Source of the DNA: Antedon mediterranea | Taxonomy: Eukaryota > Animalia > Echinodermata | Length of the DNA: 64,000 nucleotides | Assembly (NCBI RefSeq): GCF_964355755.1 | Contig: NC_092673.1 | Coordinates: forward strand, 28,951,648 to 29,015,647 | Direction of reading: 5' to 3' | Notes under the pieces: generated by a model | What the model was told of the DNA's origin: nothing | The model's database searches: none | The model's input: the letters and a program-made list of their open reading frames with translations, nothing else | Shown here: positions 18,560-51,400 of the stretch, in pieces | Position numbering within the stretch: position 1 is the first letter of the stretch | Layout: each line of letters opens with the position of its first letter | Made by a program: the position numbers and the translations under genes

Positions 18560-19664
18560 ATACTGAATGTAGGTTAAAATCTGGTGCTCTTTGTTTTAAA
18601 GGGTGATTAATATTTCTTGAATTAAGCGAACCATGTACTAATTTGATATTGACCCACTGACATTAATATTTTAGACATCGTTGTCAAGATTTTATTTGTG
18701 GATTTGATGGAATAAAATATGGTTGATTTAAGACCTAGGTCACATATGTTGCCCTTTGTGGAGGAATAAATTAGGGTTAACTGGCCTAGTTGAATGCATA
18801 TATGTTCAGGACCACATCTGTTTCATTTCACAGGTCAATTTGTACCAATATCTTATTGCATTACTGTTTGAAAATTGAGAATTATGTTAACTGGACATAG
18901 AGGAAATTATAGGTACAATGTTAACTGGACATATAGGAAATCATATGTACAATGTTAACTGGACATATAGGAATTCAGATGTACAATTAATGTTTTTTGT
19001 ATAATATTGTACATATAAATAATGTTGTTAATCTTTATATCACATATATATTTATTCTTATGCTAAGTGAGAATCAGAATAATAATAATATTAATAACTT
19101 GTTTTTATCTAGGTAGCCTTTGCATTACATCACAACTCCAAAATAGTACATTATTGAATTTCAATTATAGACAAAAAACAATTTGTATTTTGAAAATTAT
19201 GGAGGCACAAAGTGTAATAATTAAAAGAAATGTAACACTTTTCTTTTAATTATTTATTTAAACAAATGTGCAAGGAGGTGTTTTATCAATAGGTAGTGTA
19301 TAATTTTCTCTTGTTTTATATAGCTATAATTTGCTTTTTTTATTTCTTGCCATACTGTAGACCACATTTTTGTTTTTAAAACTCTAGGTTATAATTTATA
19401 TTGTGAATTAGTTTCATCATATCTCTATGCTATTCAAACAATGATAATTATATATAGATATATATTTTATATGTTTATAAAAATATTTAGTTGGATATTT
19501 AACATCTTTGAATTTAAATGAGAAGAGGGAAGCACATTTCTCTACCATTTTCTACCAATTCTCAGAGCTGTATCTCCACATACAACAATATTTGCCCAGT
19601 ATCATAGGAATATTTGGCAATGCAGTATTCTCATTTATGTTTATCACATGTGGTGCCTGTATCA

Positions 19665-23647: not shown

Positions 23648-24090
23648 CAAATAAACAGTTTATCGGAATCCATGGTTGTACTGTAGCCTCAAATAAAGGA
23701 ACGGTTTATCGGAATCCATGGTTGTACTGTAGCCTCAAATAAAGGAACGGTTTATCGGAATCCATGGTTGTATTGTAACCTAAAATAAAGGAACGGTTTA
23801 TCGGAATCCATGGTTGTATTGTAATAAAATAAAGGAACGGTTTATCGGAATCCATGGTTGTATTGTAACCTAAAATAAAGGAACGGTTTATCGGAATCCA
23901 TGGTTGTATTGTAACCTAAAATAAAGGAACAGTTATCGGAATCCATGGTTGTATTGTAACCTCAAATACAGGAACGGTTTATCGGAATCCATGGTTGTAT
24001 TGTAACCTAAAATAAAGGAACAGTTATCGGAATCCATGGTTGTATTGTAACCTCAAATAAAAGGAACGGTTTATCGGAATCCACGGTTGT
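23648..24090. repeat. 46-bp minisatellite, about 9.5 copies, upstream of the MYP promoter
   Basis: Unit GGAACGGTTTATCGGAATCCATGGTTGTATTGTAACCTAAAATAAA. Confidence 0.95.
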
Positions 24091-24432: not shown

Positions 24433-24493
24433 ATGAAGTCGTTTATAGTGTTTAGCTTATTGGCGGCCGCTTTTGCTGTCCCAACTCCTAGCG
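24433..24493 (+). CDS. MYP: Signal peptide exon MKSFIVFSLLAAAFAVPTPS
   Basis: Basic N-terminus, hydrophobic core, AFA cleavage motif, G|GTAAGT phase-1 donor. Confidence 0.85.
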
Positions 24494-27400: not shown

Positions 27401-30400
27401 CGGTGGCTGACTATAAAGATCCCCTTCCCTTCCTGCTGTAGGCCTACCTCTCTCTTACGCCCGTATTCTTAAACCGGACTTTAGTCGTAGTTCGAGCTAA
27501 AACTTAAAAAATGACGTCATTTTAATTCATAAACCGAACTTCAACTAAATCACCGACTAAATCAGGCCAACCTCGACTAAATCGAGACGGATTTTGATCG
27601 ATTTTTTTAGTCCTGGAGGGGGCAGACTAAATGGTCGACTAAATGGTTTTTAAACGATGTTTATAAAAAACGTAACAATCATTGAGTTGTTATATTGGCC
27701 AGATATTGATGAATGAAATATCTATATTTATATTAGCTTAATTAAATATACATTGGTATAAATTATAATAATGAAAATCATCTTTATTTACAACTGTATA
27801 CAAATTACATTATTTTCTTCGCGCAAGTCCGACTTGAGCTACGTCACGCCATAGCGACAATGGGAGATGCGGCAATTCACCACGCGATGGAATGTTTAGG
27901 GGGCCTAGCGCTTTCTTGTCACGCTATGAAGTGCGTGGTTCGTGGCGATCATACTTTGTTGGGGCCTAAAAAATATAAAAGTTACCGTACCGCCATGGTT
28001 CCTAAATATATTTTTAAGATTTTATTTGTTGTTAATCAAATATACTTCACTGTTAAATTAATACTGATATTGTTCTAATAATTAACGATTAAAATTATTT
28101 TTCATGTATATAGTCCTGATGCGTAAAAAGTGTTGTAAGAAATGGAAAGTGATATCAATGCGCAAAATTTCGTCTGCTCCTCAAATACTCTCTTGTCATT
28201 GGCCAATGTATAGCCTTTGTTACCCAGACGTGTGCAACTCGACTAAAAGCTCGACTTCATTAAGTCGAACTGCAAACTTCGACTACTTCGTTTTTGAATC
28301 GAATTTGAAGTAATAGCTCGAACTACGACTTTTCCAAGTCGAACTTCGAACTACGACTAAAGTCCGGTTTAAGAATACGGGCGTTAGTCTTCCCTTTAAT
28401 GGCCTGTCACGATAAATATGGTCCGGGGCCAAAATCGGTCCGGCCGGACCAGTTTTGGCTCTAAAATTGTAGCCAAAAGCAGTCCGCCACTGCCAAAATC
28501 GGTCCGGGCTTTTCTTCTGTCGATTTTAATTGAATTACTAGGCCTATGATGCTGTTTTAAGTTGTTTATGGCTAGAAAAATATCCCATGATATATATTAG
28601 TAAGTTATCTTGTCGGATAAATACTATAAATAAATGTATTTTATCTAAAAACATGACTTAGGTGTTCACTCATATTTCGGCCTGCCACACACTCACACGA
28701 ACGGGTATGAGACGCTGATATTGCCAGCTAGATTTTATTTATGATTGAGGCATTTTTCCTTCCTCAGCCTAATCAATATTGGATAATTGTTTTATAATAA
28801 TTGTATTGAATTGATATATTGATTGATTAACCATAAATAATTAATAAATTAAATTGTTTTTAACATCATGGGGAAACGAAGATGTTAAAAAAGAACAATA
28901 TGGATTAAAAACAGGCAGAGATACATATTGTATACAAAAAGCCTAACAATTAGTACTTATTATTGATGAGTTACTACTAATAATGATAACTAGAAAAACA
29001 GGCTTAATTTATAATATTAAAATAACAAATAAAACCCATAGTTTTCAATATAATGACTAATACATTTTTTTTTTATGATATAATACATTATGACTCATTT
29101 TGCGCACCATATATTTGTAAGACCGGACCATATTTGGTGGCCAAAAACAGTCCTACTGCCCGGACCGATTTTATCCAGGCCGGACCAGTTTTGGCGGCCA
29201 AAATTGGTCCGGCCGGACAGGTTTTGGCAGCCATAAATGGTCCCCCGGACTGATTTTGGCAGCCAAAACTGGTCCGCCGGACCGATTTTGGCCCGGACTG
29301 ATTTTGGTGTGACAGGCCAATGTCCACTACATAATCCATTGCCAACTTGAATTTTTTTAAACAATAATATTGGTTCAAATGTTTCAAATTTGATGCACTT
29401 GATTGTATGACCCACTATATTAAAGTTTAAAAGAGGTAAAAAAAATATAGTTACTGCAGTAACTTCAGTGGAATAATTTTGACACACCTTGTAGTTGTTA
29501 ATTCAGAGTGGAGTAACTGGAGCGAATGTAGCGCTACTTGTGGTACAGCTACAAAGACACGTAGCAGACCGTGTGTAACCACCGACTGTGTTGGTGAAAC
29601 TACGGAAATAGTAGCATGTGATCTCGATGAATGTGAGAATGGTAAGAAACACAAAAACATTAATGTCTTCAATGATTTTGATTAAGAATAATAATTATTA
29701 AAGATGTATTGTCCCTTTGCCTAATTCTAAAAAAATAAAAGATTTCGAAAAAAGGTGGCTAATTTTGAAGTATCATAATAATTATTAACTTTCACCAAAA
29801 ATTTTTCGAAAAAAAAAATCATTTAACTGAAATACAGACGTTTTTTTGTTAAAAAAATAACTTTGACTTCCAGTCAAAGTTTTCGATCAAAACATATCCC
29901 ATAATGAAACGCGCTTGTTTGGCTACTCTGTATGCAATCATAAAACTGTGTGAAAATACCTTAATCTCAACCGTGACGAGTTGTAAACAATCCTAATTAG
30001 CATATGCATAATGCGTACTCATGGTTTGAAATCTTTGTTTACTTTCGCTCGCGACGATTTTCCAGATAAAATGTAATCAAACTAATTTACCTGTTAATTA
30101 CGTAAACTTCGAATTTTCGACTTAAAGTGAATAACTTTAATATTACTTTGATATGGCCACTTTAAATTTAGAATATTTTGACCTTCATTTTTTTGTGTTT
30201 AAAGGGACAATACATCTTTAAAGATGTAAAAAACATGAACAAATTAGATTTTGAATAGGCCATTTTGTAGGTTTAATAAAGTTGATCACTTCTCCAGAAA
30301 AAAAAATTAATGTTTTCACTTATAAAAAGACAAATAAAATTGGCTAGCAGCCAATTTGATAATTTTTTGCTTTAAATTATTTGTTCAGATTTGTCCTAAA

Positions 30401-33400
30401 TTATTAGGCATATAGAACATCAAAATGGCATATTCAACAAAATTTGGAACAATTATTTTTTCAGCAGGGACAATACATCTTTTATCTTAATTAGTATTAA
30501 GCTTTGATCTAACTGGCACAGACAACTTGCCTTCTATTCTTGACGCATACTGTACTTCTAATTTACAATATGCTGATACTCCCAATTATTGATTTGGAGC
30601 ACCAGAAGCAGCAGTAACACCTCTATAAAAGATGCTAAATAGAGCTCACCCTCTCATACACCCACTAATTACTTTTGTTTGTGTTTGGAACTTCTGTGTT
30701 CAAACAACTTGACTTAGTTCAATGTATCACTCTCTTCTGTTTATTTAGTGCATGATGGAAAAGGTACATTTAATGAATTTATTTACTTTACAGCTGGTCA
30801 ACTTGGCCCTGTCTGTGTTTTTATATTGTGATCTTATATTTCTCGGTGGTTAATTACAAACATGAACCTGTTTTTACTCTATTTTTAAAATTTTTTATAT
30901 AAATAATTTAATTCATGTTTGAAATGTACCAATTATTCAAGATTGATTATCAAACGCTTTGTGACCAACAATCGTCCAATCAAATGAGAAGAATATATTA
31001 AGGTGTGTTATTTAAATAACAAAAATTTAAAGACAAAATAGATGGTTAATTTTAATCAAAAACCAAAGACAATTTAGGTATTTTTGCTTTAAATTACATT
31101 TTTTTTGTTTTGGAAAATAATTTTTTTTTTTCAGTTTTGGGTCAAAGTGAATAACTATATTATTTTTAAAATGGCATATTCAATAAAAAAAAATTAGGGT
31201 AGTTTTTAGGGGGGACAATATATCTTCAATATTTACTATAAATAAAAATCTGAATCAATTAATAGTCTTGTGAAGTCTACTGATTTATTTACATCTATTT
31301 TATAAATTCCTCAAATTTATACTGTACATAAATGGAATAGGCCTATATTAATTTTACAACTTTGTGTGATTTTTAGAACCACACAACGGTAAATGTCCTC
31401 TTTTGACAACTGAGGAGCTAATGGCACGTTGCCCAAACACTGAATGTGAGACGGACACAGAGTGTGCTGATATGCAGAAATGCTGCCGTCTTTCTTGTAA
31501 ACATGGTGCTCGCGGATGCGTTGACGTCCAACCCAGTAGAAGCTTACAACACGGAGTTTTCACAGAAGGTGCTGTATCTCTATTTGCTTATTTTTTTATA
31601 AATAAGAAATTAATCAAAAAATGAACTTTGTTGGTAATGTTTTTTTTTTTCAAATTGTAAATTGTTTTCTAATACAAGATTTGACACCTATAATTTTTTA
31701 TTTTTCCTAAAAAACACAAAAACCGGTAAAAAAGTAATGAAAGTATTAATATATAGGCAACAAAATATAGATTACACTGTTTTGACTTTTTTGATATTTA
31801 TTTTTTTTTAGCATCCTATTGCTAATTTTGTCTTCCTCAACCTTGCTTTACAAACAACGATTGTACGTCAATAAATCAAGAGTTTAAGTGTTGTACAACA
31901 ATTTGATGATTTTATATACACTATTTTTTATAAATGTAATATAAGTATATTTGGTATCTGAGTCTCAAATTATTAACGCAATATTATTAGTTCATTGTGC
32001 GCATGCTCCCCACCTTGAAACAGATCCAGACAATGACCGACGAAACATCGATTATCTCACCTAGGTTGGTTGGTGGTTGGCGCGAATCGAAAGATCCCTT
32101 TTTTGAATTGAATTAAAGCTTTAAACTTTCTTTTTGCGAGATAAAAACAGTAGACAAATATGTTTATGTTAATAGTTCTTTATGTATTTATATAAATTGT
32201 AATTATCCAATCTTATATTTTTTTAATATACTGATTGCAATACAGATTATTGAAGTTGAAAAATAATAAAAGTAACATTTTATTTTAGGTACACTTCCAA
32301 TTTGCTCTGATTGCTCAGAAACAAAGTGTACAACAGACGTTGATTGTGTGTGGCTAGGTGATTATGATACATGCTGTGTGAATATGTATCAAGGTGATCA
32401 AGTCTGTGGTGTTCCAATGAGAACTTTAAATTCTAGTAAGCTCCAACATTGTATATCATAAAACTTTGAATGAAGCCCATGGGCTTCTTTTTTTATTGCT
32501 CTGGAGTGGAGTTTCCTTTCAAGATGGGCTTCTTTTTCGAGGTTACTTTTGCAAACGGAAGAGGAGGCTTCTTTTTTTCTTTTCTTTTGTGAATTGCTAC
32601 TAAAATAATAAGATAAGAGACATCTGCCAAGTTTAAATATTTATGATCAAACGATTTTTAAACATATGTATGATATAAACTCGATCATACATTATATCTG
32701 GCATTAAATCGCCTTGTTTCTTTGATATTCAAATTGTCTATCTAAAAAAGAAGCTCATATTATCTTGAAAAGAAGCCCGATGGGCTTCTTTTCGAGATTA
32801 GATTTTTAGACCAAAGAGGGGGCTTCTTTTTGAGTTGGGCTTCTTTTCAAGGTTTTTATTTACAAGAAGTTTCATATTACAATAAGGATAAATAATAATA
32901 GTATTAACATTGTTAAATAATTAACAGGTAAATTAGTTTGATTACATTTCGCCTGGAAAATCGTCGCGAGCGAAAGTAAACAAAGATTTCAAACCACGAG
33001 TACACATTATGCATGATGCTAATTAGGATTGTTTACAACTTGTCACGGTTGAGAAGGTATTTTCACACAGATCGCGAGGAAGTTTTATGATTATGCATAC
33101 AGAGTAACCAAACAAACGCGTTTCATTATGGGATATGTTTTGATCGAAAACTTTGACTGGAAGTCAAAGTTATTTTTTTAGCAAAAAAACGTCTGTATTT
33201 CAGTTAAATGATTTTTTTTTCAACAAATTTTTGGTGATAGTTAATAACTATTATGATACTTCAAAATGACCCACCTTTTTTCGAAATCTGTTATTTTTTA
33301 TTTTTTTGGAATTAGTCAAAGGGACAATACATCTTTAATATTACTTTGATATGGCCACTTTAAATTTAGAATATTTTGACCTTCATTTTTTTGTGTTTCA

Positions 33401-36400
33401 AGGGACAATACATCTTTAAAGATGTAAAAAACATGAACAAATTAGATTTTGAATAGGCCATTTTGTAGGTTTAATAAAGTTGATCACTTCTCCAGAAAAA
33501 AAAATTAATGTTTTCACTTATAAAAAGTGTATTTGCTTATTTTTTTATAAATAAGAAATTAATCAAAAAATGAACTTTGTTGGTAATGTTTTTTTTTTCA
33601 AATTGTTTTCTAATACAAGATTTGACACCTATAATTTTTAATTTTTCCTAAAAAACACAAAAACCGGTAATAAAGTAATGAAAGTAGTAACATATAGGCA
33701 ACAAAATATAGATTACACTATTTTGACTTTTTTTATATTTATTTTTTTTTAGCATCCTATTGCTAATTTTGTCTTCCTCAACCTTGCTTTACAAACAACG
33801 ATTGTACGTCAATAAATCAAGAGTTTAAGTGTTGTACAACAATTTGATGATTTTATATACACTATTTTTTATAAATGTAATATAAGTATATTTGGTATCT
33901 GAGTCTCAAATTATTAACGCAATATTATTAGTTTATTGTGCGCATGCTCCCCACCTTGAAACAGATCCAGACAATGACCGACGAAACATCGATTATCTCA
34001 CCTAGGTTGGTTGGTGGTTGGCGCGAATCGAAAGATCCCTTTTTTGAATTGAATTAAAGCTTTAAACTTTCTTTTTGCGAGATAAAAACAGTAGACAAAT
34101 AGATATCCTTTTATATACAGTGTACGTTGTCTCCTTTTAAAAATATGTTTATGATAATAGTTCTTTATGTATTTATATAAATTGTAATTATCCAATCTTA
34201 TATTTTTTTAATATACTGATTGCAATAAAGATTATTGAAGTTGAAAAATAATAAAAATAACATTTTATTTTAGGTACACTTCCAATTTGCTCTGATTGCT
34301 CAGAAACAAAGTGTACAACAGACGTTGATTGTGTGTGGCTAGGTGATTATGATACATGCTGTGTGAATATGTATCAAGGTGATCAAGTCTGTGGTGTTCC
34401 AATGAGAACTTTAAATTCTGGTAAGCTCCAACATTGTATATCATAAAACTTTGAATGAAGCCCATGGGCTTCTTTTTTTATTGCTCTGGAGTGGAGTTTC
34501 CTTTCAAGATGGGCTTCTTTTTCGAGGTTACTTTTGCAAACGGAAGAGGAGGCTTCTTTTTTTCTTTTCTTTTGTGAATTGCTACTAAAATAATAAGATA
34601 AGAGACATCTGCCAAGTTTAAATATTTATGATCAAACGATTTTTAAACATATGTATGATATAAACTCGATCATACATTATATCTGGCATTAAATCGCCTT
34701 GTTTCTTTGATATTCAAATTGTCTATCTAATAAAGAAGCTCATATTATCTTCTTTTCGAGATTAGATTTTTAGACCAAAGAGGGGGCTTCTTTTTGAGTT
34801 GGGCTTCTTTTCAAGGTTTTTGTTTACAAGAAGTTTCATATTACAATAAGGATAAATAATAATAGTATTAACATTGTTAAATAATTAACAGGTAAATTAG
34901 TTTGATTACATTTCACCTGGAAAATCGTCGCGAGCGAAAGTAAACAAAGATTTCAAACCACGAGTACACATTATGCATGATGCTAATTAGGATTGTTTAC
35001 AACTTGTCACGGTTGAGAAGGTATTTTCACACAGATCGCGAGGAAGTTTTATGATTATGCATACAGAGTAACTAAACAAACGCGTTTCATTATGGGATAT
35101 GTTTTGATCGAAAACTTTGACTGGAAGTCAAAGTTATTTTTTTAGCAAAAAAACGTCTGTATTTCAGTTAAATGATTTTTTTTTCAACAAATTTTTGGTG
35201 ATAGTTAATAACTATTATGATACTTCAAAATGACCCACCTTTTTTCGAAATCTGTTATTTTTTATTTTTTTTGGAATTGGTCAAAGGGACAATATATCTT
35301 TAATATTACTTTGATATGGCCACTTTAAATTTAGATTATTTTGACCTTCATTTTTTTGTGTTTCAAGCGACAATACATCTTTAAAGATGTAAAAAACATG
35401 AACAAATTAGATTTTGAATAGGCCATTTTGTAGGTTTAATAAAGTTGATCACTTCTCCAGAAAAAAAAATTAATGTTTTCACTTATAAAAAGTGTATTTG
35501 CTTATTTTTTTATAAATAAGAAATTAATCAATAAATGAACTTTGTTGGTAATGTTTTTTTTTTCAAATTGTTTTCTAATACAAGATTTGACACCTATAAT
35601 TTTTAATTTTTCCTAAAAAGCACAAAAACCGGTAAAAAAGTAATGAAAGTAGTAACATATAGGCAACAAAATATAGATTACACTGTTTTGACTTTTTTTA
35701 TATTTATTTTTTTTTAGCATCCTATTGCAACGATTGTACGTCAATAAATCAAGAGTTTAAGTGTTGTACAACAATTTGATGATTTTATATACACTATTTT
35801 TTATAAATGTAATATAAGTATATTTGGTATCTGAGTCTCAAATTATTAACGCAATATTATTAGTTCATTGTGCGCATGCTCCCCACCTTGAAACAGATCC
35901 AGACAATGACCGACGAAACATCGATTATCTCACCTAGGTTGGTTGGTGGTTGGCGCGAATCGAAAGATCCCTTTTTTGAATTGAATTAAAGCTTTAAACT
36001 TTCTTTTTGCGAGATAAAAACAGTAGACAAATAGATATCCTTTTATATACAGTGTACGTTGTCTCCTTTTAAAAATATGTTTATGATAATAGTTCTTTAT
36101 GTATTTATATAAATTGTAATTATCCAATCTTATATTTTTTTAATATACTGATTGCAATAAAGATTATTGAAGTTGAAAAATAATAAAAGTAACATTTTAT
36201 TTTAGGTACACTTCCAATTTGCTCTGATTGCTCAGAAACAAAGTGTACAACAGACGTTGATTGTGTGTGGCTAGGTGATTATGATACATGCTGTGTGAAT
36301 ATGTATCAAGGTGATCAAGTCTGTGGTGTTCCAATGAGAACTTTAAATTCTAGTAAGCTCCAACATTGTATATCATAAAACTTTGAATGAAGCCCATGGG

Positions 36401-39400
36401 CTTCTTTTTTTATTGCTCTGGAGTGGAGTTTCCTTTCAAGATGGGCTTCTTTTTCGAGGTTACTTTTGCAAACGGAAGAGGAGGCTTCTTTTTTTCTTTT
36501 CTTTTGTGAATTGCTACTAAAATAATAAGATAAGAGACATCTGCCAAGTTTAAATATTTATGATCAAACGATTTTTAAACATATGTATGATATAAACTCG
36601 ATCATACATTATATCTGGCATTAAATCGCCTTGTTTCTTTGATATTCAAATTGTCTATCTAAAAAAGAAGCTCATATTATCTTGAAAAGAAGCCCGATGG
36701 GCTTCTTTTCGAGATTAGATTTTTAGACCAAAGAGGGGGCTTCTTTTTGAGTTGGGCTTCTTTTCAAGGTTTTTATTTACAAGAAGTTTCATATTACAAT
36801 AAGGATAAATAATAATAGTATTAACATTGTTAAATAATTAACAGGTAAATTAGTTTGATTACATTTCGCCTGGAAAATCGTCGCGAGCGAAAGTAAACAA
36901 AGATTTCAAACCACGAGTACACATTATGCATGATGCTAATTAGGATTGTTTACAACTTGTCACGGTTGAGAAGGTATTTTCACACAGATCGCGAGGAAGT
37001 TTTATGATTATGCATACAGAGTAACTAAACAAACGCGTTTCATTATGGGATATGTTTTGATCGAAAACTTTGACTGGAAGTCAAAGTTATTTTTTTAGCA
37101 AAAAAACGTCTGTATTTCAGTTAAATGATTTTTTTTTCAACAAATTTTTGGTGATAGTTAATAACTATTATGATACTTCAAAATGACCCACCTTTTTTCG
37201 AAATCTGTTATTTTTTATTTTTTTTGGAATTGGTCAAAGGGACAATATATCTTTAATATTACTTTGATATGGCCACTTTAAATTTAGATTATTTTGACCT
37301 TCATTTTTTTGTGTTTCAAGCGACAATACATCTTTAAAGATGTAAAAAACATGAACAAATTAGATTTTGAATAGGCCATTTTGTAGGTTTAATAAAGTTG
37401 ATCACTTCTCCAGAAAAAAAAATTAATGTTTTCACTTATAAAAAGTGTATTTGCTTATTTTTTTATAAATAAGAAATTAATCAAAAAATGAACTTTGTTG
37501 GTAATGTTTTTTTTTTCAAATTGTTTTCTAATACAAGATTTGACACCTATAATTTTTAATTTTTCCTAAAAAGCACAAAAACCGGTAAAAAAGTAATGAA
37601 AGTAGTAACATATAGGCAACAAAATATAGATTACACTGTTTTGACTTTTTTTATATTTATTTTTTTTTAGCATCCTATTGCAACGATTGTACGTCAATAA
37701 ATCAAGAGTTTAAGTGTTGTACAACAATTTGATGATTTTATATACACTATTTTTTATAAATGTAATATAAGTATATTTGGTATCTGAGTCTCAAATTATT
37801 AACGCAATATTATTAGTTCATTGTGCGCATGCTCCCCACCTTGAAACAGATCCAGACAATGACCGACGAAACATCGATTATCTCACCTAGGTTGGTTGGT
37901 GGTTGGCGCGAATCGAAAGATCCCTTTTTTGAATTGAATTAAAGCTTTAAACTTTCTTTTTGCGAGATAAAAACAGTAGACAAATAGATATCCTTTTATA
38001 TACAGTGTACGTTGTCTCCTTTTAAAAATATGTTTATGATAATAGTTCTTTATGTATTTATATAAATTGTAATTATCCAATCTTATATTTTTTTAATATA
38101 CTGATTGCAATAAAGATTATTGAAGTTGAAAAATAATAAAAGTAACATTTTATTTTAGGTACACTTCCAATTTGCTCTGATTGCTCAGAAACAAAGTGTA
38201 CAACAGACGTTGATTGTGTGTGGCTAGGTGATTATGATACATGCTGTGTGAATATGTATCAAGGTGATCAAGTCTGTGGTGTTCCAATGAGAACTTTAAA
38301 TTCTGGTAAGCTCCAACATTGTATATCATAAAACTTTGAATGAAGCCGATGGGCTTCTTTTTTTTATTACTCTGGAGTGGAGTTTCCTTTCAAGATGGGC
38401 TTCTTTTTCGAGGTTACTTTTGCAAACGGAAGAGGAGGCTTCTTTTTTTCTTTTCTTTTGTAAATTGCTACTAAAATGATAAGATAAGAGACATCTGCCA
38501 AGTTTAAATATTTATGATCAAACGATTTTTAAACGTATGTATGATATAAACTCGATCATACATTATATCTGGCATTAAATCGCCTTGTTTCTTTGATATT
38601 CAAATTGTCTATCTAAAAAAGAAGCTCATATTATCTTGATTCTTTTCGAGAGGGGGATTCTTTTTGAGGTGGGCTTCATTTCAAGGTTTTTATTTACAAG
38701 AAGTTTCATATTACAATAAGGATAAATAATAATAGTATTAACATTGTTAAATGTTACAGTTCTTTACGCTGCCAAATTCCATAGGTCACACATTATACTT
38801 TTTGATACCACCTGTATTTTTCAAATAGACTACAGGTATTTCAAGAGGTTTCCAAGCGACATGGGCCCATGGTTTCCTCTTGGGCTTTTTGCCAAATGTT
38901 TTATAAATAAATTAATATTTATTATATATTTTCATTGATAGGGTTGAATGACATATGTAGAACACCAGATAAATTCACCATCACATACTTACTATGTAAA
39001 ACTGATGCCAACTGTAAACAGGGTACGTTTTGCTGTTTCGGTGCTGGTATCCCGTATTGTGTTAAGCCAAAGAGTAAAGCGTTACTGTTCGGTAAGATCT
39101 TATGTTAAATTATTGTCATAATTGCTATTATTTTCCCATTTTTATCTTTTTGGTATTCTGTCTTTAGTTAAATTTCAATTTCTACTTTATTTTTTCTTAC
39201 TGTTTGTCTGTTGCACAAAAATAGATGTCTTATGAATTGAATATTGTTTGATTATAATCACATGCTCAAGTATGATGTGATTACTGCCATCTCAAAGGGT
39301 TTAGGCCTGGACCTGGCCTCTTGTTAAAAGAATAGTCATCACTGATTATGATATAGTGGAGCAAAACTTTTTACTTTTGTTATTTTTCAGATTCAAACCC

Positions 39401-42400
39401 TATGTGTCCTCCAAATTATTTCCCCAACTACTTTACCGAAATTCCATGTTCAGTCAACAATATTTGTCCCAATGGTATGATATGCTGTCTGGATTCTAAA
39501 GATAGTCGGATCTGTGCTTATCCAAAAACCAAGTCTTTAATATCTGGTAAGTTTTCAAATTATTTTATTATTGTTTTATATATTGTTTGAAGGTTTGCAT
39601 GGCGAAATCAAATGTTGATATAAAGTTTGCGGTACACCATGTATATTAGTTCTGAAAAGATCTGTTGAGTTTCTCGACGTTTCGATCAATGCTTTGACCG
39701 TCCTCAGGAGTGCAGTGGCGCGGTATGCAGTGGCGGCATTGCAGTGGCGGCATTGTAGTGGCGGCATTGCAGCATTGCAGTGGCGGCATTGCAGTGGCAG
39801 CATTGCAGTGGCGGCATTACAGTGGTGGCATTGTAGTGGCAGCATTGCAGTGGCGGCATCGCAGTGGCGGCATTGCAGTGGCGGCATCGCAGTGGTGACA
39901 TTGCAGTGGCGTCATTGCAGTTGTGTCATTGCAGTGGCGGCATCGAAGTGGCGGCATCGCAGTGGCCGCATCGCAGTGGCGCCATCGCAGTGGCGGCATT
40001 ACAGTGTGGTGTATTCATCCTTGCAAAATGAGAATAGGAAGCCTACCATCATTAAAATCTTTGTACAGAATTGTTATTGGGATTGTTAAATTAGTCAAAC
40101 TTTGACTCGCTTCTTTACTCGCACAAAATGGTTGTTACTGAAACTGTTATCATACGCCACGAATATATTACTTCCAGAGTGCTATAAAATGGGCGATGCT
40201 GTGGATTATCGAGGCTCAGTCAATACAACCATCTCCGGTAAAGCGTGCCAGTATTGGACCTCGCAGATACCTCATAAGCATGCACGGACAACGGTAAAAT
40301 ATCCTGACAAAGGTTTGGGAGATCACAACCTCTGCCGTAACCCTGATGGAGAGGTTTCTGCTTGGTGTTACACAACAGATCCGACTACGAGGTACGAAAT
40401 GTGTGACATTGGCAATCCGGGAGAAAACTGCGGAACACCAGGTAGGAGTTTTTAAGTGTGTTGTATAGTTATTAATTTTAAATTATTTATAAATAAATTA
40501 CTTAATTATGAAAATCAACATTGTTATGCTTCTTTAAATGATTTAAATTACTTGTATTGTGTTGTAGTTTTTAAACCCAGTTTGAGTAAAAATTAAAATA
40601 TCAAATACCGTAAGTAATATTTGTACCCACATGTATTCAATAATTTTTCATTTATTCCAGAACTTAATTCCATGTGTCCTGAGAGCAACAATCACGTGTT
40701 TTTCACAAATATTGCTTGCTCCTCTGACAATGAGTGTGAGGAAGATCTTTTATGCTGTTTTAGAGAATCTGTTGGCCAAGTCTGTGCTTTCTCAAAAACA
40801 AAGAACTTAGTTACAGGTAATTAAGTTTAGTGTACATATCCTGCTCTGAGTATGCTGTAAGGTCAATATAAAGAACACTTTCTCATGAAGAAAACCAGAA
40901 AAATATCTTTAACACTACAGCTAACCTCTATTAAAGGGACACGATGTTGGCCCTAAAGGTGTCCCCTGAATATGGGTTGATGCTGCAGAACTGCGCATAC
41001 ATTATTTAAATTTTTTAAGCATGACTAGAGATACCAAATTATTTTCTAGTATACATAATGACATATATTATGCAATCATTAGTTTCACAAAAATTGTTTA
41101 GGTTTTTTTGGATTTTTTTTCAGAGTTAAATTCTTTGTGTCCTTTAAGTTCATTTCCTGGTTATTTCACAAACATTGCCTGCGGAACGGATGATGATTGC
41201 CCCAGTGATCTGTTATGTTGTCATGGTGATAATGTAGGCCAGGCATGTGCATTTTCAAAGACCAAGTCTTTAATATCTGGTGAGTTTCTGTTGTCGGCCT
41301 AATTTCAAATCATTTATTATGACATAATGAATTTCATTTGTATATGTGAACAGCAAGGATGCGTGCTGTGCCACACTTAAAGAGTTCAGAGCCATCTCTG
41401 CTACACAAGGCATTATTCCCCACCTTCCCCCTCCCCCAACTTTTTCTGCATCTATCATCCCTTTATGATAATCAAAATCTACCGTTTTCAGAATCCCTTT
41501 GTGATATACTTTACCCAAAATCTACTTTTCAGAATCCCTTTGTGATATACTTTACCCAAAATCTACTTTTCAGAATCCCTTTGTGATATACTTTACCCAA
41601 AATCTACTTTTCAGAATGTTACAAAATAGAGAATGCCGTAGATTATCGAGGTGCAGCCAATACAACCATCTCTGGTAAAGCTTGTCAATCCTGGACCTCG
41701 CAGACACCTCATAAACATACAAGACGGCAAGACAGGTATCCAGACTCTGGTGTAGGAGATCACAACCTCTGCCGTAACCCTGATAAGGAGTCTTCTGCCT
41801 GGTGCTACACAACCGATCCAAAGACAAGATGGGAGGTGTGTGATATTGGAAGACCTGGACAAAATTGCGGATTAGGTAAGAACAATGAACACAGTTAGTT
41901 GTACTTTTTAACTTGTTTCGCACTCATTGCTTTGCGGACAATGAATGAGGAAGATCACCTATGTTGTTTAAAGCTCTGTCTACACAAACTTTATGTGACA
42001 AAACAATGTGATGTGCCCATATTGACACGATGATGTCATATCACTACTGTATTTGGGCATATCACTACCATATTTGGGCACATCACACTTTTTTTTGTCA
42101 AACTAGTTTGATGTGTATACAGAACGTAGACAGTCCATGTGGGTACCAAACTAAGGAACCTTCTGCATATCCAAGAAATGTTATTAAGCATGTTTTTGTT
42201 GTAAATGACCAAATAAATCTTGTACATTCGTGTAACAGGTTCGTACTACTAGCGTCGTAGCTTTATCGCGTAGTATTTTCCGGAGCTGCAGCACTGGCAC
42301 AAACACAATAAAATCATCCACAGAGACAGTTCTTGGTTTGGAAAAGTTAAATTCTTTTATTGAAGCTAGTAACCAGTCGGAAGGAGATATAACAAAAACA

Positions 42401-45400
42401 GTGTTACTATATTTAAAATAACATATCAGTGATCGATCGATCGTATCATTAACGACAGTATAGGCTACTTTTGCGTTGTGTCTAGTATATTCAATCAAAT
42501 AACTAATCAACTATATTAACTTAAAACAATTCTAAAATTAAGAGAGATAAAAATATAGATGCTTACCTAGTAACCAGTCAGAAGGAGATGAAAACCTTCA
42601 CTTTGGGCTAGGCACTAGTAAGTGTCATCCATTCCCAGTTGGGTACTATGACAATTTTTAACCGATGGTATATACATTTACCATAACGTTATTTCGTAGT
42701 TTACAGACCGATTGTATTGTAACTTGAGTCATACACATGTAATTATCAATTTAAATTCGGTTATACAAAAAAAGAAACTATTAAAAATGCAAATCAATTA
42801 ACAAAATCCCTTGTCCATTTATGAACTGACCCATACTGAAACATACACTAAATATTCATGACCATTTTCCCGCCACTTGGATGAGGTGACTCATCTATTT
42901 ATAGCATGGTCACTTATCATTCTAGCTTTTACTTTAATGGGTCCCACAAGGTTTCTCAGATTCAAGTCAGATTCAGCAGATAAATCATTCAAGTATTTGG
43001 GTATAAGCATACCTGTTACCCTGTTACATTCGTATATACAGGATGTATTAGAATTTGTTTTCTTCATTTCCAGAACTTAATTCCATGTGTCCTAAGAGCA
43101 ACAAACACATGTTTTTCACAAATATTCCTTGTTCCTCTGACAATGAATGTGAGGACGATCTTTTATGCTGTTTTAGAGAATCTGCTGGCCAAGTCTGTGC
43201 TTTCTCAAAAACAAAGGAAATAAAATCTGGTATGTGTTAAATTTAAATATATATGTTTTATTGTTCTTTATGAAAACTGAGAATGGACAAGGTTTATACA
43301 AATCTTACATGATAGTTAACAATAAATATATTTATTTTAAAAATTACTAATATTCTTGTTTCAATTTTAATTAACATCATTTTCATAAAAATCATCATTA
43401 CTTCTTTTAATACTTTTACTCAAATTTTAGCGGGTATTAGGAAGCTTTCACATTGCGATGACTGATGACTATCTCATGTTAGTTCATTGTGCACATGCAG
43501 ATATATTGGAATGTGTGTCCTTGCCCCCCAACCCCCACCACAGGCAACGACAAGACATAATTATTTATGATATTTTTGTATATATAGTTTGAATGTTTTG
43601 CTTACTTTTTATATTTTTATATTTACTGTATATGGAGAAATCTGAAATAAAATAATAATAATAATAATAGAGATATGTAGGTTGGTCGTTGGTTGTCACA
43701 AATTAAAAGCTTTGTATTTTTACCAATCATAATCTTCATTTTCATTGTTGATATAATCATAATCATTTTTATTACTACTTTATTATTTTTAAAATTCAGT
43801 ATCGTAATCTTAATTTATATAGTCACAATGAAAGCAAACGCTCTGAAAAAAATCCAACTAGAATTAGTTGTTTGCGATGCTCATTCAACCTTAAGCTCTG
43901 TCTACACTATCAAACAATGACCAAAAATGTGATGTGCCCATATACGGACATGATGATGTCATATATCACTATCATATTTGGACATATCACTACCATATTT
44001 GGGCACATAACACATTTTTGTCAAACTAGTTTGATAGTATAGACAGAGCTTTATTTAAAAAAATCAAGTTGTTTTTGTTTATGCAATTGCGGCGAAAATT
44101 CTTATTTTTATTTCAGAGCCTATAGTAATTGCTTGATGGCTTGATGAGTTTTCCTAAGTCATTTAATTGTCATACATTAAGCATGTCTCTTTTTTTTTTT
44201 CATTTTTCAATAAACATCTTTAATAAAAATTAACGCATGTTTTAGAGTGGCACTCTGAGAAATATCCAGAGTGCTTTAGAATGGCAGATGCTGTAGATTA
44301 CCGAGGCTCAGTCAATACAACTGAAACCGGTAAAGCGTGCCAACCTTGGACCTCACAGACACCTCATGGTCATACAAGAACGTCAGTAAACTACCCTGAT
44401 ATGGGTTTGGGAGATCACAACCTATGCCGTAACCCTGATAGAGAGCCGTTTGCTTGGTGTTACACGGCAGATCCAACGTCAAGGTGGGAAGTTTGTGATA
44501 TTGGAAAACCTGGAGAAAATTGTGGAGGGACAGGTATGATTGTGAGAAGTGCTTAATCATCTCATTATGCTTCTCTGTTTTCATTACATTTTTTTGTTAT
44601 TTTGTGAATGTCTAGAATTTGAAATTATTAATAACTTTTAATTAATTACAATTTATTGTCATAGTCATCACTATTGTATATTTTCACAAACATTTTCAAA
44701 AATTGTTATAGATTGTATTCTATTTTTGTCTTTATTTTTCACATTATTATTAAATCTTATCATTGTTTAATTATTTTTATCATTTAATTTTATCGTATTA
44801 TTTTTTTATTAATAAATTCAATTTGCTGTAGTTTTAATGGTTACTCAATGTGCACTTTTCCATTCCTACTTACATATGCTAAATCTTTAATATCTGGTAA
44901 GTTTCATTGATTTTGGATTATTTTGTGAAAAGCACAAGTGAAAGATAGAAATTGGAAAAATACACTCTTTTGAATAAATGTGCTTGCCCTCCAATCCCAA
45001 GGTATGGTGTTCAATCCTGACCTAGGGCCAGGGTTGTAACTCACCACTCTTTCAACTCCCCTCGCTAACTATCAAATGAGTTTATAAGCACAATAAATTT
45101 AATTATTCAAATAGTTTATCTATCCTGTAATTGGTGAGTTACTCGCTGTTGGATGCGTATGAAATAAGAAAAGTATACACGATTTTTTAAATAATTAAAT
45201 AAATAAATAAAGATCCTGACAGAATCAAGAGGTTATATGCATGATAATGCATATAACCTAATTATTCAGATAGTATATCAATCCTGTAATTGGTGAGTTA
45301 CTCGCTGTTGGATGCGTATGAAATAAGAAAAATATATATACGATTTAAAAAATAATTAAATAAATAAATGAAAAAAATGTTTTTTTCCCTCAGAGAATAA

Positions 45401-48400
45401 TCCTACTCTTCTACCTGGCTTTCACTTGTCAGGATATGAATGCAATACAGTGCATGACTGTATAAACATCTTTGGTCCCAATGCAATTTGCTGTAATTCC
45501 AATGGTCACCTAGTATGCGCTGAACCTACATATGCTAAATCTTTAATATCTGGTAAGTTTCATTGATTTTGGATTATTTTGTGAAAAGCACAAGAGTGGA
45601 GGGTGCAATGATGCTATATATGTAATCAAGCAGATCCAGGAAATTGCATATCGCTCAAATCGCAATTAACTCTATACATGCTTCATTGATTTAACAGCAG
45701 CATTCGACCATGTGAATCGTAATCTTCTTTTCCTAAGCGTTCGTAATACTAGGTTTCACTTAAACCAGAGTCTACTACTATGATTGACATAATACAATCA
45801 CTGTACAGCTCAACGAAAGCTGACGACGATCCGATAAGTTTGAAACATCTTCTGGTGTGCGACAGGGTGGTATTGAGAGTACCAGCATGTTTAACCAATA
45901 TTTTGATTACGTTATTAGAGTGTTCAAACAACGCTGTAAAGATGCTAGTTTGGATGGATGGCCTAATGATACAATACCTAATTCCTATTGAAGCTACAAA
46001 TCGTGCTCAAAGATGTAAAGCACCGTCAAGGGGCATCTGTATGACGACTTTGAAAGTGGCTATGCTGACGACTTTGCTGTAAGCTCCTGGTCACAAGAAG
46101 AACTGCAAACCATTGTGAACATCTTGAATGAAGTTGGTCGGGAATTTGGTCTAAGAATTAGTGCCCCAAAAACAGAAACCATTATATGGAACTGGAAAGA
46201 GGAAGTTGAAGAATACCTAAGATGCATCATACAAATTGGCGGCGTACACATTAACAAAGTAACACACTTTAGATACCTTGGTGTATGGGCTACCTACAAT
46301 GATGTTCATATTGGAGATCAAGAAGAAAAATACAGAATCAATTCAGCCAAAGGAGCATTTGCAGAGAATAGGGCATTGCTTACCAACAGAACAATCCACC
46401 AACAAACAAGAATGATGTTTCTTAATGGTCTAGTTAGGAGTAGACTCACCTATGGTTGCCATGCTTGGAGGGCAACAGGAAGTGAAATGTCCAAACTTAG
46501 CACAACATACAAAACCTTCCTAAGAAGAATGCTAGTGAATGGCTTTCAAAGGGTCTGCCCACCAAACCATGTTGACATATCCTCAGATGAAGCAACAGAT
46601 GAAAACTATATAGACTGGCGTTACATAATTGATAATGACTATCTCTACAAAATTACTGGCTGTCAACTGCTAGAAGAATATGTCTACAAGCAACAATTCA
46701 ACTGGATCGGACATGTAATTAGAAAAGAAAATGAAGATCCTACAAAAATTCTTACTTTTCACACAAAATAAACGAAGAGGTCGGAAGATACCATCAGTAC
46801 TTGATAGAGTTGTACAACAAAGTCAACTTACTAGATGCAACTTCATTGGAGCCTGCTTCAACAGAAATTTATAATTCCCAGCAATGTTTTAACTGTATAT
46901 ATGAACTGTTTTATAAGTTGTTTTGTGACTGTGCAATTTGGTAGTAGTCACTCTCGTACAGTACATTTAAAAGTAACACACCCAAATGCCAACTTTAAGT
47001 CAATGGCTACCAGATGTCTCTGTGAGACGGTTATTTGAACCAGTACCAGTACCAGTACAAGTAAAAGATAGAAATTGGAAAAATACACTCTTTTGAATAA
47101 ATGTGCTTGCGTTGCTTTTTTTTTTATATATTTAAGGACCCCATTGGAATTAAGTTGATTTTTCTCTCGACTTTATGGGCTACTAGTAGGCATGTTAAGG
47201 AGCATATCTTAGGCAAATCCTTCAAATTGTGATAACATTTTGAAACTTTGCACAGTTTATTCATTAGGGTGTCAAAAATATGAAATGGAAGGGTTGCACA
47301 AAATTTGGTCAGGGGAAAGCCGCCATTTTGGATTTCAAAATGGCGGACCTCAAATTTTCACTTGTCAGGTATATCTCTGCTAAAGAGGCACCTAGAGTTC
47401 TGATTTTACATGCAAAATATATGGTAGTGGGGTCACCAAACATATTGGTATAATTAACATTTGATTGCATGGCGGCCATGTTGGATTTCAAAATGGCGGA
47501 CTTCAAATGTTCACTTTTCAGGTATATCTCTGCTAAAAAGGCACCTAGAATTCTGATTTTATGTGCAAATTATAATTATGGTAATGGGGTCACCAAACAT
47601 ATTTGTATAACTAACATTTTGATTGCATGGTGGCCATGTTGGATTTCAAAATGGCGGACCCCAATAACTTTCCAGGTATATCTCTGCTAAAAAGGTACAC
47701 AGTGCTCTGATTTTAGGTGCAAATTATATGGTAATGGGTCACCAAATATATTGCTATTTAACTAACACTTTGATTACATGGCGGCCATTTTGAATTTCAA
47801 AATGGCAAGCTCAGAATATTTCAGTACGGCCGGTACCTACAGTTATAATTTTAGGTACAAAGTATAATATGGTATTGAGGTCAACAAACATATTGGTATA
47901 ACGTCTTTGATTGCATGGCGGCCATTTTGAATGTAGCTCAAACCTGGTAACCACACAGCTCTGTACATCATAAATCACTCTTTCTGCATTTACAGTGTCC
48001 AAGTCCAAGATCACAGTCGGTGTGTCACAGCGATTTGTGACATCTGAAAGTTCCGGCAATGAACTCCAAACTGGACTAAATTTGTTGCCGTCCTTCCTCC
48101 ATCCCCAGTTTGCTGGGTCCTGTTCAACCCTGAATGCATCTAGACAGTTGTACCACTTTCTGGCTTGTAGAAAAGACCGTTTCACATGTTCTCTTAATGC
48201 CGCAGATGTTGGGGGGATATTTTCAATAGTCTGTAGTAAAAAGATATCGTCTTGCATCATTTACCTTCTTTCTACATAGTTACAACAAACTGTTCTAGAT
48301 AATCTGTGTCACTAACATCCCCTACAGACAATGACATCGTCTCAAATTCCTTTCCTTGAACAGATGAAGTTGTATCAGAACTGCTAAAGGAATGAAAGAA

Positions 48401-51400
48401 CAAGTAAGCGGCTGATGCTTGTGATCCAAGAGAAGTAATCTTGTGTATTGAGATATACTTCAAGTGCTTCCCCACTCCAAACTCGATCCAAAGCTTGTGG
48501 ATGCCAGGTATTCTGTGGAAAGTTGACAATGAAATAACAACAACATCACTGTCTACAGTCTTGACAAGAATGCGCGGACAAATTTTAGCGACATGAACAA
48601 ACATACGTTCATCTGCCTCTTCTATGTTACATGGCATCAGCGGTTTTATATTTACAGACTGGTTTGTTACAGCTCTGTCTCGCTCTCAGAGACCCTACAA
48701 ACATTCCGTGATTTGTGTCAATGTTCTCTACTACTCTGATTTGTTGTCGTCATATCTCAAATATGTGGTCCAATTGTTGGGCATGCTCCTACTGGCTTTG
48801 ACGCCCCTCCTTAAACCAGAGCCGCGGTTTGAACGCGTACTAGCGCGTACTAGACTTTAAATCGTCGTTAAAGTATCTATCGAAAACCAAATCTGGTCAC
48901 GTCACTGATCGAAGTTGATGGTCTATATATGGTTGTACGACAAAATGAAGCACCATTAGTTGCTGCCAAGGTGTTAGATGGACCAGCAATAATCAATATG
49001 CTCAGGCCCAATGATTCGAAGACATTCATTGAGTATATATCAAGTGTCATACAACCATCAACTTCGATCAGTGACACGACTAGATTTGTTTTTCGATAGA
49101 TACTTTAACGACAGTTTAAAGGCTGGTACGCGTTCAAACCGCGTCTCTGGTGTAAGGAGGGTCGTTAAAGCCAGCAGGAGCTTGCCCAACAATTGGACCA
49201 CATTTTAGCTGTAACAAACCAGTAAATATACAATCGCTGATGCCATGTAACATAGAAGAGGCAGATGAACGTATGTTTGTTCACGTTAAACTTGCCGCTG
49301 AAATTTTCCACGCATTGTCAAGACTGTACACAGTGATGTTGTTGTCAGCTTTCCACAGAATACCTGGCATCCACGAGCTTCGGATCGAGTTTGGAGTGGG
49401 GAAGCACTTGAAGTACATCCCAATACACGAGATTGCTTCTTCTCTTGGATCACAAGCATCAGCCGCTTACTTGTTCTTTCATACCATTAGCGGTTGTGAT
49501 AGAACTTCATCTGTTTAAGGAAAAGGTAAAGCTACATTTAACGAGACTTTGAAAAAGATGCCATGTATGACTCCAGTTTTTGAGAGGATGTCATTGTCTG
49601 TAGGGCATGTTAGTGAAACAGACACAGATTATCTAGAACAGTTTGTTGTAACTATGTCTACTGCAGAACATTTAATGATGCAAGACGATATCTTTTTACA
49701 ACAAGAGAAAGACTATTGAAAATATCCCCCAACATCTGCAGCATTAAGAGAACTTGTGAAACGGAAGCCAGGAAGTGGTACGACTGTCTAGATGCATTCA
49801 GGGTTGAACAGGACCCAGCGAACTGGGGATAGAGGAAGGACGGCAACAAATTTAGTCCAGCTTGGAGTTCATTGCCGGAACTTTCAGATGTCACAAAGGT
49901 TTTAATTCGCTGTAGACACACCGACTGTGATCTTGGATGCTGTAAATGCAGAAAGAGTGATTTACGATGTACAGAGCTGTGTGGTTGCCAGGGAAAATGT
50001 GATCTACAATAAGTGTCCGTGTTAAATGCATGTAATTATGAACATAAACAAATAGTGTAAAGCCAGTACGGGTTGAGCTACATTCAAAATGGCCGCCATG
50101 CAATCAAAGACGTTATACCAATATGTTTGTTGACCTCAATACTATATTATACTTTGTACCTAAAATTATAACTGTAGGTACCGTACTGAAACATTTTGAG
50201 TTCGCCATTTTGAAATTCAAAATGGCCGCCATGCAATAAAAATGTCAGTTAAATACCAATATGTTTGGTTACCCATTACCATATAATTGGCACCTAAAAT
50301 CAGAACTCTGTGTACCTTTTTAGCAGAGATACCTGAAAAGTGAAAATTTGAAGTCCGCCATTTTGAAATCCAAAATGGCCGCCATGCAATCAAAATGTTA
50401 GTTATACCAATATGTTTGGTGACCCCATTTACATATAATTTGCACCTAAAATCAGAACTCTAGGTGCCTTTTTAGCAGAGATATGCCTGAAAAATGAAAA
50501 TTTGAAATCCGCCATTTTGAAATCCAACATGGCCGCCATGGAATCAAAATGTTAGTTATACCAGTATGTTTGGTGACCCCACTACCATATAATTTGCACC
50601 TAAAATCAGAACTCTAGGTGCCTCTTTAGCAGAAATATACCTAAAAAGTGAAAATTTGAAGTCCGCCATTTTGAAATCCAAAATGGCCGCCATGCAATTA
50701 AAATGTTAGTTATACCAATATGTTTGGTGACCCCATTACCATATAATTTGCACCTAAATTCAGAACTCTAGGTGCCTATTTAGCAGAGATATACCTGAAA
50801 AGTGAACAATTTGGGTCCGCCATTTTGAAATCCAAAATGGCGGCTTTCCCCTGACCAAATTTTGTGCAACCCTTCCATTTCATATTTTTGACACCCTAAT
50901 GAATAACTGTGCAAAGTTTCAGAATGTTATCACAATTTGAAGGATTGGGTCACTTAACAGGCCTACTATACCATTGGTTTATTATTTAATGTATTTTCTT
51001 GTAAATTATTTGTATTCATATTGTCTTGTAGTCTTATGTTGAAACCGAATAAAATCAGTTCAAATTTATAAATTAATGAAATATTAAATTGCAATCTATT
51101 TTCCCTCAGCGACTCGTGTTTGTCCAGTGTACCAGTGTAACTTTTTAAAGCATATTTTTACTTTTTAATTTTTGTAATCCTCATTGTTTTTCATGTTTTT
51201 GTTCTAATAATAGTAAACAAATAAAATAAAACATATAGTAGTATATGAAGTATAGCGTCTTCACCCATGTTCTGCTTTGATAGAGACTAACATTGACATT
51301 ATTTTATTTTTTTAAAGAAAAACCAAAATCAATAGTAGATAAAACATTGTCCGATTTACGACCTGATCAAATCATCCCAGAGGCGGAAGACAGAATACGA

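What the first reader, a model, noticed from the sequence alone, without database searches (positions are those of the whole stretch)
29495..45552. All 15 module exons are frame-neutral, giving a potential combinatorial isoform generator
Seen: every module exon is a multiple of 3 nt (147-264) with phase-1 introns on both sides, so any subset can be skipped. Signal + WAP + core alone would rebuild a classical MYP. Inference: tissue- or sex-specific splicing could yield short yolk forms and long decorated forms from a single locus.
Basis: partly seen in the sequence, partly recalled or inferred. Interest (0 to 1): 0.7.

Follow-up and report, generated by a model that had tools for sequence, protein, structure and literature searches.

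The report
Shuffled module exons in feather-star MYP
The front end of this feather-star major-yolk-protein gene is 15 small exons that all keep the reading frame, likely a by-product of exon copying and shuffling; the four spliced joins seen link neighbours in order, so a regulated mix-and-match isoform generator is possible but not shown.

Summary
Observation confirmed: 15 exons (29495-45552; TSP1, WAP and WAP-like, three kringles) are 3n with phase-1 introns on both sides, between a signal-peptide exon and a transferrin-type MYP core; ORF 2010 aa. 25 of 35 exons match an Antedon mediterranea RefSeq protein letter for letter. The symmetry is what exon duplication and shuffling into a phase-1 intron must leave (Patthy's class 1-1 rule). 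The exons fall into 3-4 families, four are 1%-diverged tandem copies, and five dead module remnants lie among them. So it permits skipping but is no evidence for it. One probable RNA run shows four joins, all between neighbours. Donor sites are not weaker than the core's, except M2. Tissue- or sex-specific use and a signal+WAP+core form are untested. The better finding is the fast-changing N-terminus of crinoid MYP. Interest 0.3.

The parts
24433..24493 (+). Signal-peptide exon of the MYP gene, ends in phase 1
   Evidence: resembles the N-terminus of Anneissia MYP; no read support tested
29495..29641 (+). M1, TSP1 module, 147 nt, phase 1-1 (in-frame alternative acceptor at 29507)
   Evidence: (PF00090 E 6e-11)
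31377..31568 (+). M2, 8-Cys WAP module, 192 nt (or 159 nt with donor after 31535); weakest donor in the gene
   Evidence: (PF00095 E 1.7e-7)
31581..38752 (+). Recent tandem genomic array, period 1932-1985 nt, units 0.7-1.35% diverged, each with one dead and one intact module exon
31812..31910 (+). Dead module exon: strong acceptor, same Cys spacing as M3, in-frame stops; copy at 33753, copies with a 33-nt deletion at 35718 and 37671 (3' end approximate)
   Evidence: chance expectation of the Cys pattern about 3e-4
32289..32435 (+). M3, 7-Cys WAP-like module, 147 nt
   Evidence: no Pfam hit; BLASTP to M2 E 9e-5
34274..34420 (+). M4, same peptide as M3
36206..36352 (+). M5, same peptide as M3
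38159..38305 (+). M6, same peptide as M3
38942..39091 (+). M7, 6-Cys WAP-like module, 150 nt
   Evidence: below Pfam cut-off
39391..39546 (+). M8, 6-Cys WAP-like module, 156 nt
   Evidence: below Pfam cut-off
40178..40441 (+). M9, kringle, 264 nt
   Evidence: spliced to M10 in run X1
40661..40816 (+). M10, 6-Cys WAP-like module, 156 nt
   Evidence: spliced to M11 in X1
41124..41279 (+). M11, 6-Cys WAP-like module, 156 nt
   Evidence: spliced to M12 in X1
41615..41875 (+). M12, kringle, 261 nt
   Evidence: spliced to an M13-like exon in X1
43074..43229 (+). M13, 6-Cys WAP-like module, 156 nt, 84% identical to M10
44270..44533 (+). M14, kringle, 264 nt (288 nt from acceptor 44246, as in the RefSeq model)
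44815..44897 (+). Remnant: 3' half of an M15 paralogue with an intact donor, no open 5' half
   Evidence: tblastn E 2e-6
45394..45552 (+). M15, 5-Cys module, 159 nt
51318..62119 (+). MYP core, 19 exons of mixed phases: transferrin lobes, insertion, C-terminal cystine-knot-like part

Best explanation
The 15 exons form an in-frame module array at the front of a feather-star major yolk protein gene, and their shared 3n, phase 1-1 form is likely the footprint of stepwise exon duplication and shuffling into the phase-1 intron behind the signal peptide rather than a device for making isoforms. Shown: the exon structure, the module families, a recent fourfold tandem duplication, five dead copies, four in-order splices, and different arrays in relatives (10 WAPs in Anneissia, WAP-kringle-WAP in an ophiuroid-like protein, one WAP in sea stars and sea cucumbers, none in hemichordates). 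Inferred: a single exon gained in a phase-1 intron survives only if it is 1-1, so every survivor is skippable as a side effect; the main mRNA probably includes the intact modules in order; some low-level cassette skipping probably occurs, most likely of M2 and among the M3-M6 copies; the modules would be accessory binding or protease-related domains on a secreted transferrin-like protein.
For: Phase pattern 15 of 15 against 6 of 18 in the core. Only 3-4 module families; M3-M6 differ at 1 of 147 nt, units 0.7-1.35% diverged. Dead copies with stops show birth and death of modules. Relatives share the phase-1 slot: junction residues of the Acanthaster and Apostichopus WAP-less models change as a phase-1 split codon predicts (read from the protein alignment). 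Run X1: 4 joins, 4 consecutive, 0 skips among the 3 joints and 3 loose ends listed. Intronic donor match 2.92 vs 2.89 of 4 (P=0.89); acceptor scores P=0.79. Patthy 2021 (PMC8001218, passages): shuffled domain types are class 1-1, with excess phase-1 introns near signal-peptide cleavage sites. Patthy 2019 (PMC6335736, part 1 of 2): frame-preserving skipping reflects assembly from symmetrical modules.
Against: RefSeq models in three classes skip module exons; the Acanthaster X2, Apostichopus X2 and Anneissia X3 junctions are unique sequence, so not repeat mis-mapping. Patthy 2019 also says such exons are particularly prone to skipping. The read evidence is thin: one run whose RNA status is a guess, depth 3-10, contigs that drop rare variants, 4 of 16 consecutive joins seen, two of them with 29-30 letters on the short side, under the tool's 31-letter bar. 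The splice-site scores rest on 12 against 18-19 sites from this gene alone.
Confidence: 0.75

Rival explanations
1. Regulated combinatorial splicing: the array yields many isoforms, short ones in gonad or egg and long ones in coelomic fluid or matrix.
For: All 136 forward joins are open. WAP-in and WAP-out RefSeq models in Acanthaster (61 aa) and Apostichopus (57 aa), six Anneissia models of 1568-1746 aa that differ only in N-terminal repeats. M2 donor and M1, M14 acceptors are weak.
Against: Four of four joins in X1 are consecutive. Every Anneissia model keeps at least 7 of 10 WAPs, and 4 of 5 short ones have no 34-aa window absent from the longest. The known sea-urchin coelomic and egg forms arise by processing of the protein (PMC13666137, passages). 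No tissue data.
Confidence: 0.13
2. The 5' part of the array (M1-M6) is decaying or mostly left out: the working mRNA joins the signal exon to M7 or later, and M2-M6 are recent, largely skipped passengers.
For: Weak M2 donor, weak M1 acceptor; dead exons inside each tandem unit; the RefSeq model starts inside M8; no database protein of 85-2000 aa shares three 5-residue words with M3.
Against: M1-M7 are all open, with canonical sites; the RefSeq model is unreliable at both ends, having no signal peptide and a fused LRR-SAM-RING gene; the blank is weak evidence by the tool's own note.
Confidence: 0.08
3. The four M3-M6 copies are an assembly artefact, so the true exon number is about 12.
For: Units are only about 1% apart, like alleles; no listed contig spans the array.
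Against: Units carry their own substitutions and 2-6 indels per pair, with a structured junction repeated three times; summed contig depth at 38348 is about 3-5 times that of neighbouring single contigs in X2-X4 (one sample, and the tool says depth is no copy number).
Confidence: 0.04

Closest known systems
Class 1-1 exon-shuffled modular proteins of Metazoa (Patthy; PMC8001218, PMC6335736)
   Same: One domain per exon, phase-1 introns on both sides, secreted protein, array behind the signal-peptide exon, skippable as a result.
   Different: Nothing in mechanism; the host is a transferrin-type MYP and the array is still turning over (1%-diverged copies, dead exons).
Echinoderm major yolk protein / toposome (Paracentrotus Q6WQT5, Apostichopus MYP1/2, sea star MYP-like)
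   Same: Signal peptide, Cys-rich N-terminal module, transferrin lobes, C-terminal Cys-rich part; core 35-41% identical.
   Different: 883 aa of modules instead of one WAP-type domain, with TSP1 and three kringles; 2010 aa against about 1300-1370; yolk role in crinoids untested.
Anneissia japonica MYP-like, XP_033098842 and five further RefSeq isoforms
   Same: Closest other core (65% over 1112 aa); expanded N-terminal array; isoform models differ by whole modules.
   Different: 10 WAPs only, no TSP1 or kringle; modules only 21-39% identical to those here, so the two arrays grew largely independently.
Antedon mediterranea XP_071948893.1 (uncharacterized protein)
   Same: Same locus: M9-M15 and C1-C18 match letter for letter.
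   Different: The model lacks the signal exon and M1-M7, starts inside M8 and runs on into a downstream LRR-SAM-RING gene; no isoforms in its cluster.
Dscam-type combinatorial splicing (recalled, not from a call)
   Same: Tandem duplicated, frame-compatible exons of extracellular domains.
   Different: Dscam uses mutually exclusive choices among diverged variants; here neighbours are spliced together and four copies are identical.

Membership tests
Class 1-1 shuffled module array | Each module exon is 3n and flanked by phase-1 introns | tested here: met
   15 of 15
Class 1-1 shuffled module array | Exon borders coincide with domain borders | tested here: met
   One Pfam TSP1, WAP or kringle match per exon in 8 of 12 distinct exons above cut-off, 2 more just below; M3 and M15 unmatched
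Class 1-1 shuffled module array | Modules gained or lost relative to orthologues | tested here: met
   0, 1, 2, WAP-kringle-WAP, 10 and 15 modules across relatives
MYP / toposome | Transferrin-family core closest to known MYPs | tested here: met
   PF00405; 65% to Anneissia, 35-41% to other echinoderm MYPs
MYP / toposome | Signal peptide plus N-terminal WAP-type domain | tested here: met
   splicing of the signal exon and M2 into the mRNA not shown
MYP / toposome | C-terminal cystine-knot-like domain (feature recalled) | tested here: inconclusive
   PF00007 E 0.0064, 17 bits, under the cut-off of 24
MYP / toposome | Loss of iron-binding residues | not tested
   feature from PMC5854732 passage; ligand positions not mapped here
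MYP / toposome | Abundant in yolk or coelomic fluid | not testable with these tools
   needs proteomics of eggs and coelomic fluid
Regulated combinatorial splicing locus | Frame-compatible alternative exons | tested here: met
   136 of 136 joins open
Regulated combinatorial splicing locus | Skip junctions seen in transcripts of this species | tested here: inconclusive
   0 skips, 4 consecutive joins, one shallow run of contigs, M9-M12 only
Regulated combinatorial splicing locus | Weak splice sites on the alternative exons | tested here: not met
   no group difference; exceptions M2 donor, M1 and M14 acceptors
Regulated combinatorial splicing locus | Inclusion changes with tissue, sex or stage | not testable with these tools
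   no run on record as RNA, no tissue labels

The most novel reading that the evidence does not exclude
The phase-1 intron behind the MYP signal peptide is an echinoderm-wide switch: a WAP cassette that is spliced in or out in sea stars and sea cucumbers has grown in feather stars into a fast-evolving, copy-number-variable array of TSP1, WAP-like and kringle exons whose regulated skipping turns one yolk-protein gene into a family of decorated coelomic or immune proteins.
Probability: 0.12. Interest if true: 0.65.

Novelty: new variant of a known kind. Interest (0 to 1): 0.3.

Why it matters
The frame symmetry itself is textbook. What is worth having is the corrected gene model (the public one is cut at the 5' end and fused at the 3' end) and the view of exon shuffling in progress on a gene whose core is conserved from cnidarians to sea urchins: recent copies, dead copies, and a kringle gained both here and in an ophiuroid-like MYP. 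If splicing were regulated it would add an RNA-level route to MYP forms that in sea urchins are made by protein processing, and RT-PCR across 16 joins would test it cheaply.

Tried and rejected
No whole genome was held, so paralogues elsewhere were not counted. No listed holder is on record as RNA; this says nothing on expression. Laying X1-X4 on 38000-47100: the joint table showed 15 of 733 rows, all in high-copy repeats, so M6-M8 and M13-M15 joins could not be read; X1 had no cover over 39216-39519 (M8), which is no evidence. Homologue search with M3: no candidate (weak). ESM Atlas did not answer. Representative search with the first core exon gave 12 proteins and no further crinoid array. 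Earlier findings: none. Literature: 0 papers with 'major yolk protein' and 'kringle'; 0 with 'major yolk protein', 'echinoderm', 'transferrin', 'alternative splicing'; 3 with 'major yolk protein' and 'crinoid', none about this by title, one read in passages; seen as listings only. Most older MYP papers are in subscription journals outside the library. Rejected: the 7e-8 chance figure (exons are not independent); the self-trained score that makes module donors look stronger (P=0.01), because it is inflated by the shared exonic G and vanishes on intronic letters. No structure or complex prediction was run; it would not bear on splicing.
Full report
What is there. The window holds a 35-exon gene on the + strand from 24433 to about 62119 with an open frame of 2010 aa. 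A 61-nt signal exon ends in phase 1. Fifteen module exons follow (29495-45552, 883 aa), then 19 core exons. Pfam gives TSP1 for M1, WAP above cut-off for M2, M10, M11 and M13, WAP just below it for M7 and M8, kringle for M9, M12 and M14, nothing for M3 (and so its copies M4-M6) or M15, and transferrin for the core. The peptides of 25 of the 35 exons (M9-M15, C1-C18) occur letter for letter in Antedon mediterranea XP_071948893.1. That model starts inside M8, has no signal peptide and continues into an LRR-SAM-RING protein. The closest other core is Anneissia japonica MYP-like, 65% identical. The gene is a crinoid major yolk protein homologue.

The observation. All 15 exons are 3n and phase 1-1, and none of 136 forward joins makes a stop. 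Only 6 of 18 internal core exons are symmetric. In-frame alternatives exist for M1 (135), M2 (159) and M14 (288, used by RefSeq).

Why this is expected. The exons are not independent. They form 4 groups by BLASTP. M3-M6 differ at 1 of 147 nt and sit in a tandem array of period 1932-1985 nt whose units differ by 0.7-1.35%. A single exon copied or inserted into a phase-1 intron keeps the frame only if it is 1-1 (inference from the reading frame). Patthy 2021 (PMC8001218, passages) states that the shuffled domain types were all class 1-1 and that phase-1 introns are in excess near signal-peptide cleavage sites. Patthy 2019 (PMC6335736, part 1 of 2) argues that frame-preserving skipping in animals follows from this assembly, and also that such exons are prone to skipping. 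The array shows death as well as birth. Each tandem unit carries a second, dead module with the cysteine spacing of M3 behind a strong acceptor (31812, 33753; with a 33-nt deletion at 35718, 37671; chance about 3e-4), and half a copy of M15 lies at 44815-44897. These five would have to be left out of a full-length mRNA.

Transcript evidence in this species. Five runs hold the core; none is on record as RNA. X1 holds 0.28 of the words, close to the exonic share of 0.26. On 40020-41960 it gave 11 contigs, 3 joints and 3 loose ends. Two joints are M10-M11 and M11-M12 with GT..AG ends at the predicted bases (short sides 30 and 29 letters, just under the tool's bar of 31). The third goes from M12 to a 144-nt piece that carries the M13 letter at 6 of the 8 places where M10 and M13 differ, with a third letter at one place and two extra differences. 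One loose end is the last 13 letters before the M9 donor, placed ahead of M10. The other two belong to a kringle not in the window. So 4 of 16 consecutive joins are seen and no skip. Limits: depth 3-10, intron-covering contigs at depth 2-6 in the same run, contigs that drop rare variants, and no test of signal-M8 or M13-core (one search was swamped by repeats).

Splice sites. Skipped exons tend to have weak sites (Grau-Bove et al. as summarised in PMC6335736). For 12 distinct module exons against the core, intronic donor match is 2.92 vs 2.89 of 4 (P=0.89) and acceptor scores do not differ (P=0.79). These are the likeliest cassettes.

Relatives, for and against. For: Acanthaster X2 lacks the 61-aa WAP block and Apostichopus X2 the 57-aa block, each joining signal to core by a unique junction. 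Six Anneissia models (1568-1746 aa) differ only by 53-178 aa of N-terminal WAP repeats. That such RefSeq models rest on RNA-seq is recalled; I could not see read counts. Against: each Anneissia model keeps at least 7 of 10 WAPs, and in 4 of the 5 short ones every 34-aa window also occurs in the longest, so short reads could be mis-assigned; silent DNA differences were not visible to me. Of the ten clusters listed, two name isoforms. In sea urchins the coelomic form is partly processed into the egg form (PMC13666137, passages), a protein-level route to short and long forms.

The architecture varies widely: no module in hemichordate and coral homologues, one WAP in sea stars and sea cucumbers, two in Amphiura, WAP-kringle-WAP in an unnamed ophiuroid-like protein (P0009; kringle 47-51% identical to M9, M12, M14), ten in Anneissia, fifteen mixed modules here. 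Searches found no paper with MYP and kringle or MYP and alternative splicing, within a library that lacks most subscription journals. No supplements were opened.

Verdict. Real feature, known cause. Best reading (0.75): a shuffled, still-changing class 1-1 array, mainly spliced in order, with incidental skipping. Regulated combinatorial splicing stays open at about 0.13. Novelty: new variant of a known kind. Interest 0.3.

Noticed in passing
   Followed up: yes
window 29696-30329 and 32918-33527 (repeated at 34882-35492, 36835-37445): Each tandem junction holds an inverted copy of 29696-30100 followed by a direct copy of 30131-30329, which suggests template switching when the array arose.
   Followed up: partly
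window 38348-38535: DNA runs X2-X4 read letters of units 1-3 where unit 4 differs, and summed depth is below what 4+4 copies would give; copy number may vary between haplotypes (weak).
   Followed up: partly
window 45595-50946: The intron between M15 and the core holds a reverse-transcriptase fragment (46019-46768, PF00078) and an element with 744-nt inverted ends, 47216-50946.
   Followed up: partly
P0009: An unnamed ophiuroid-like MYP has a kringle between two WAPs where the Amphiura model has none: a second gain, an old shared module, or a cassette.
   Followed up: partly
XP_071948893.1 (P0007): The public model lacks the signal exon and M1-M7 and is fused to a downstream LRR-SAM-RING gene (LRSAM1-like, name recalled).
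   Followed up: yes
window 40311-40351: An X1 contig matches 40 nt of M9 and continues as a different kringle not found in the window.
   Followed up: no
window about 3100-18560, + strand: Exons of a coiled-coil protein upstream (EVI5-like by recall; Pfam gave only a weak NET2A hit), with a long tandem repeat at about 6640-7670.
   Followed up: no
window 23654-24090: A 46-nt repeat, 9.6 copies, about 340 nt upstream of the start codon.
   Followed up: no
P0025, P0054, P0058, P0059: MYP-type cores without N-terminal modules occur in a coral and in unnamed relatives, so the core is older than echinoderms.
   Followed up: no
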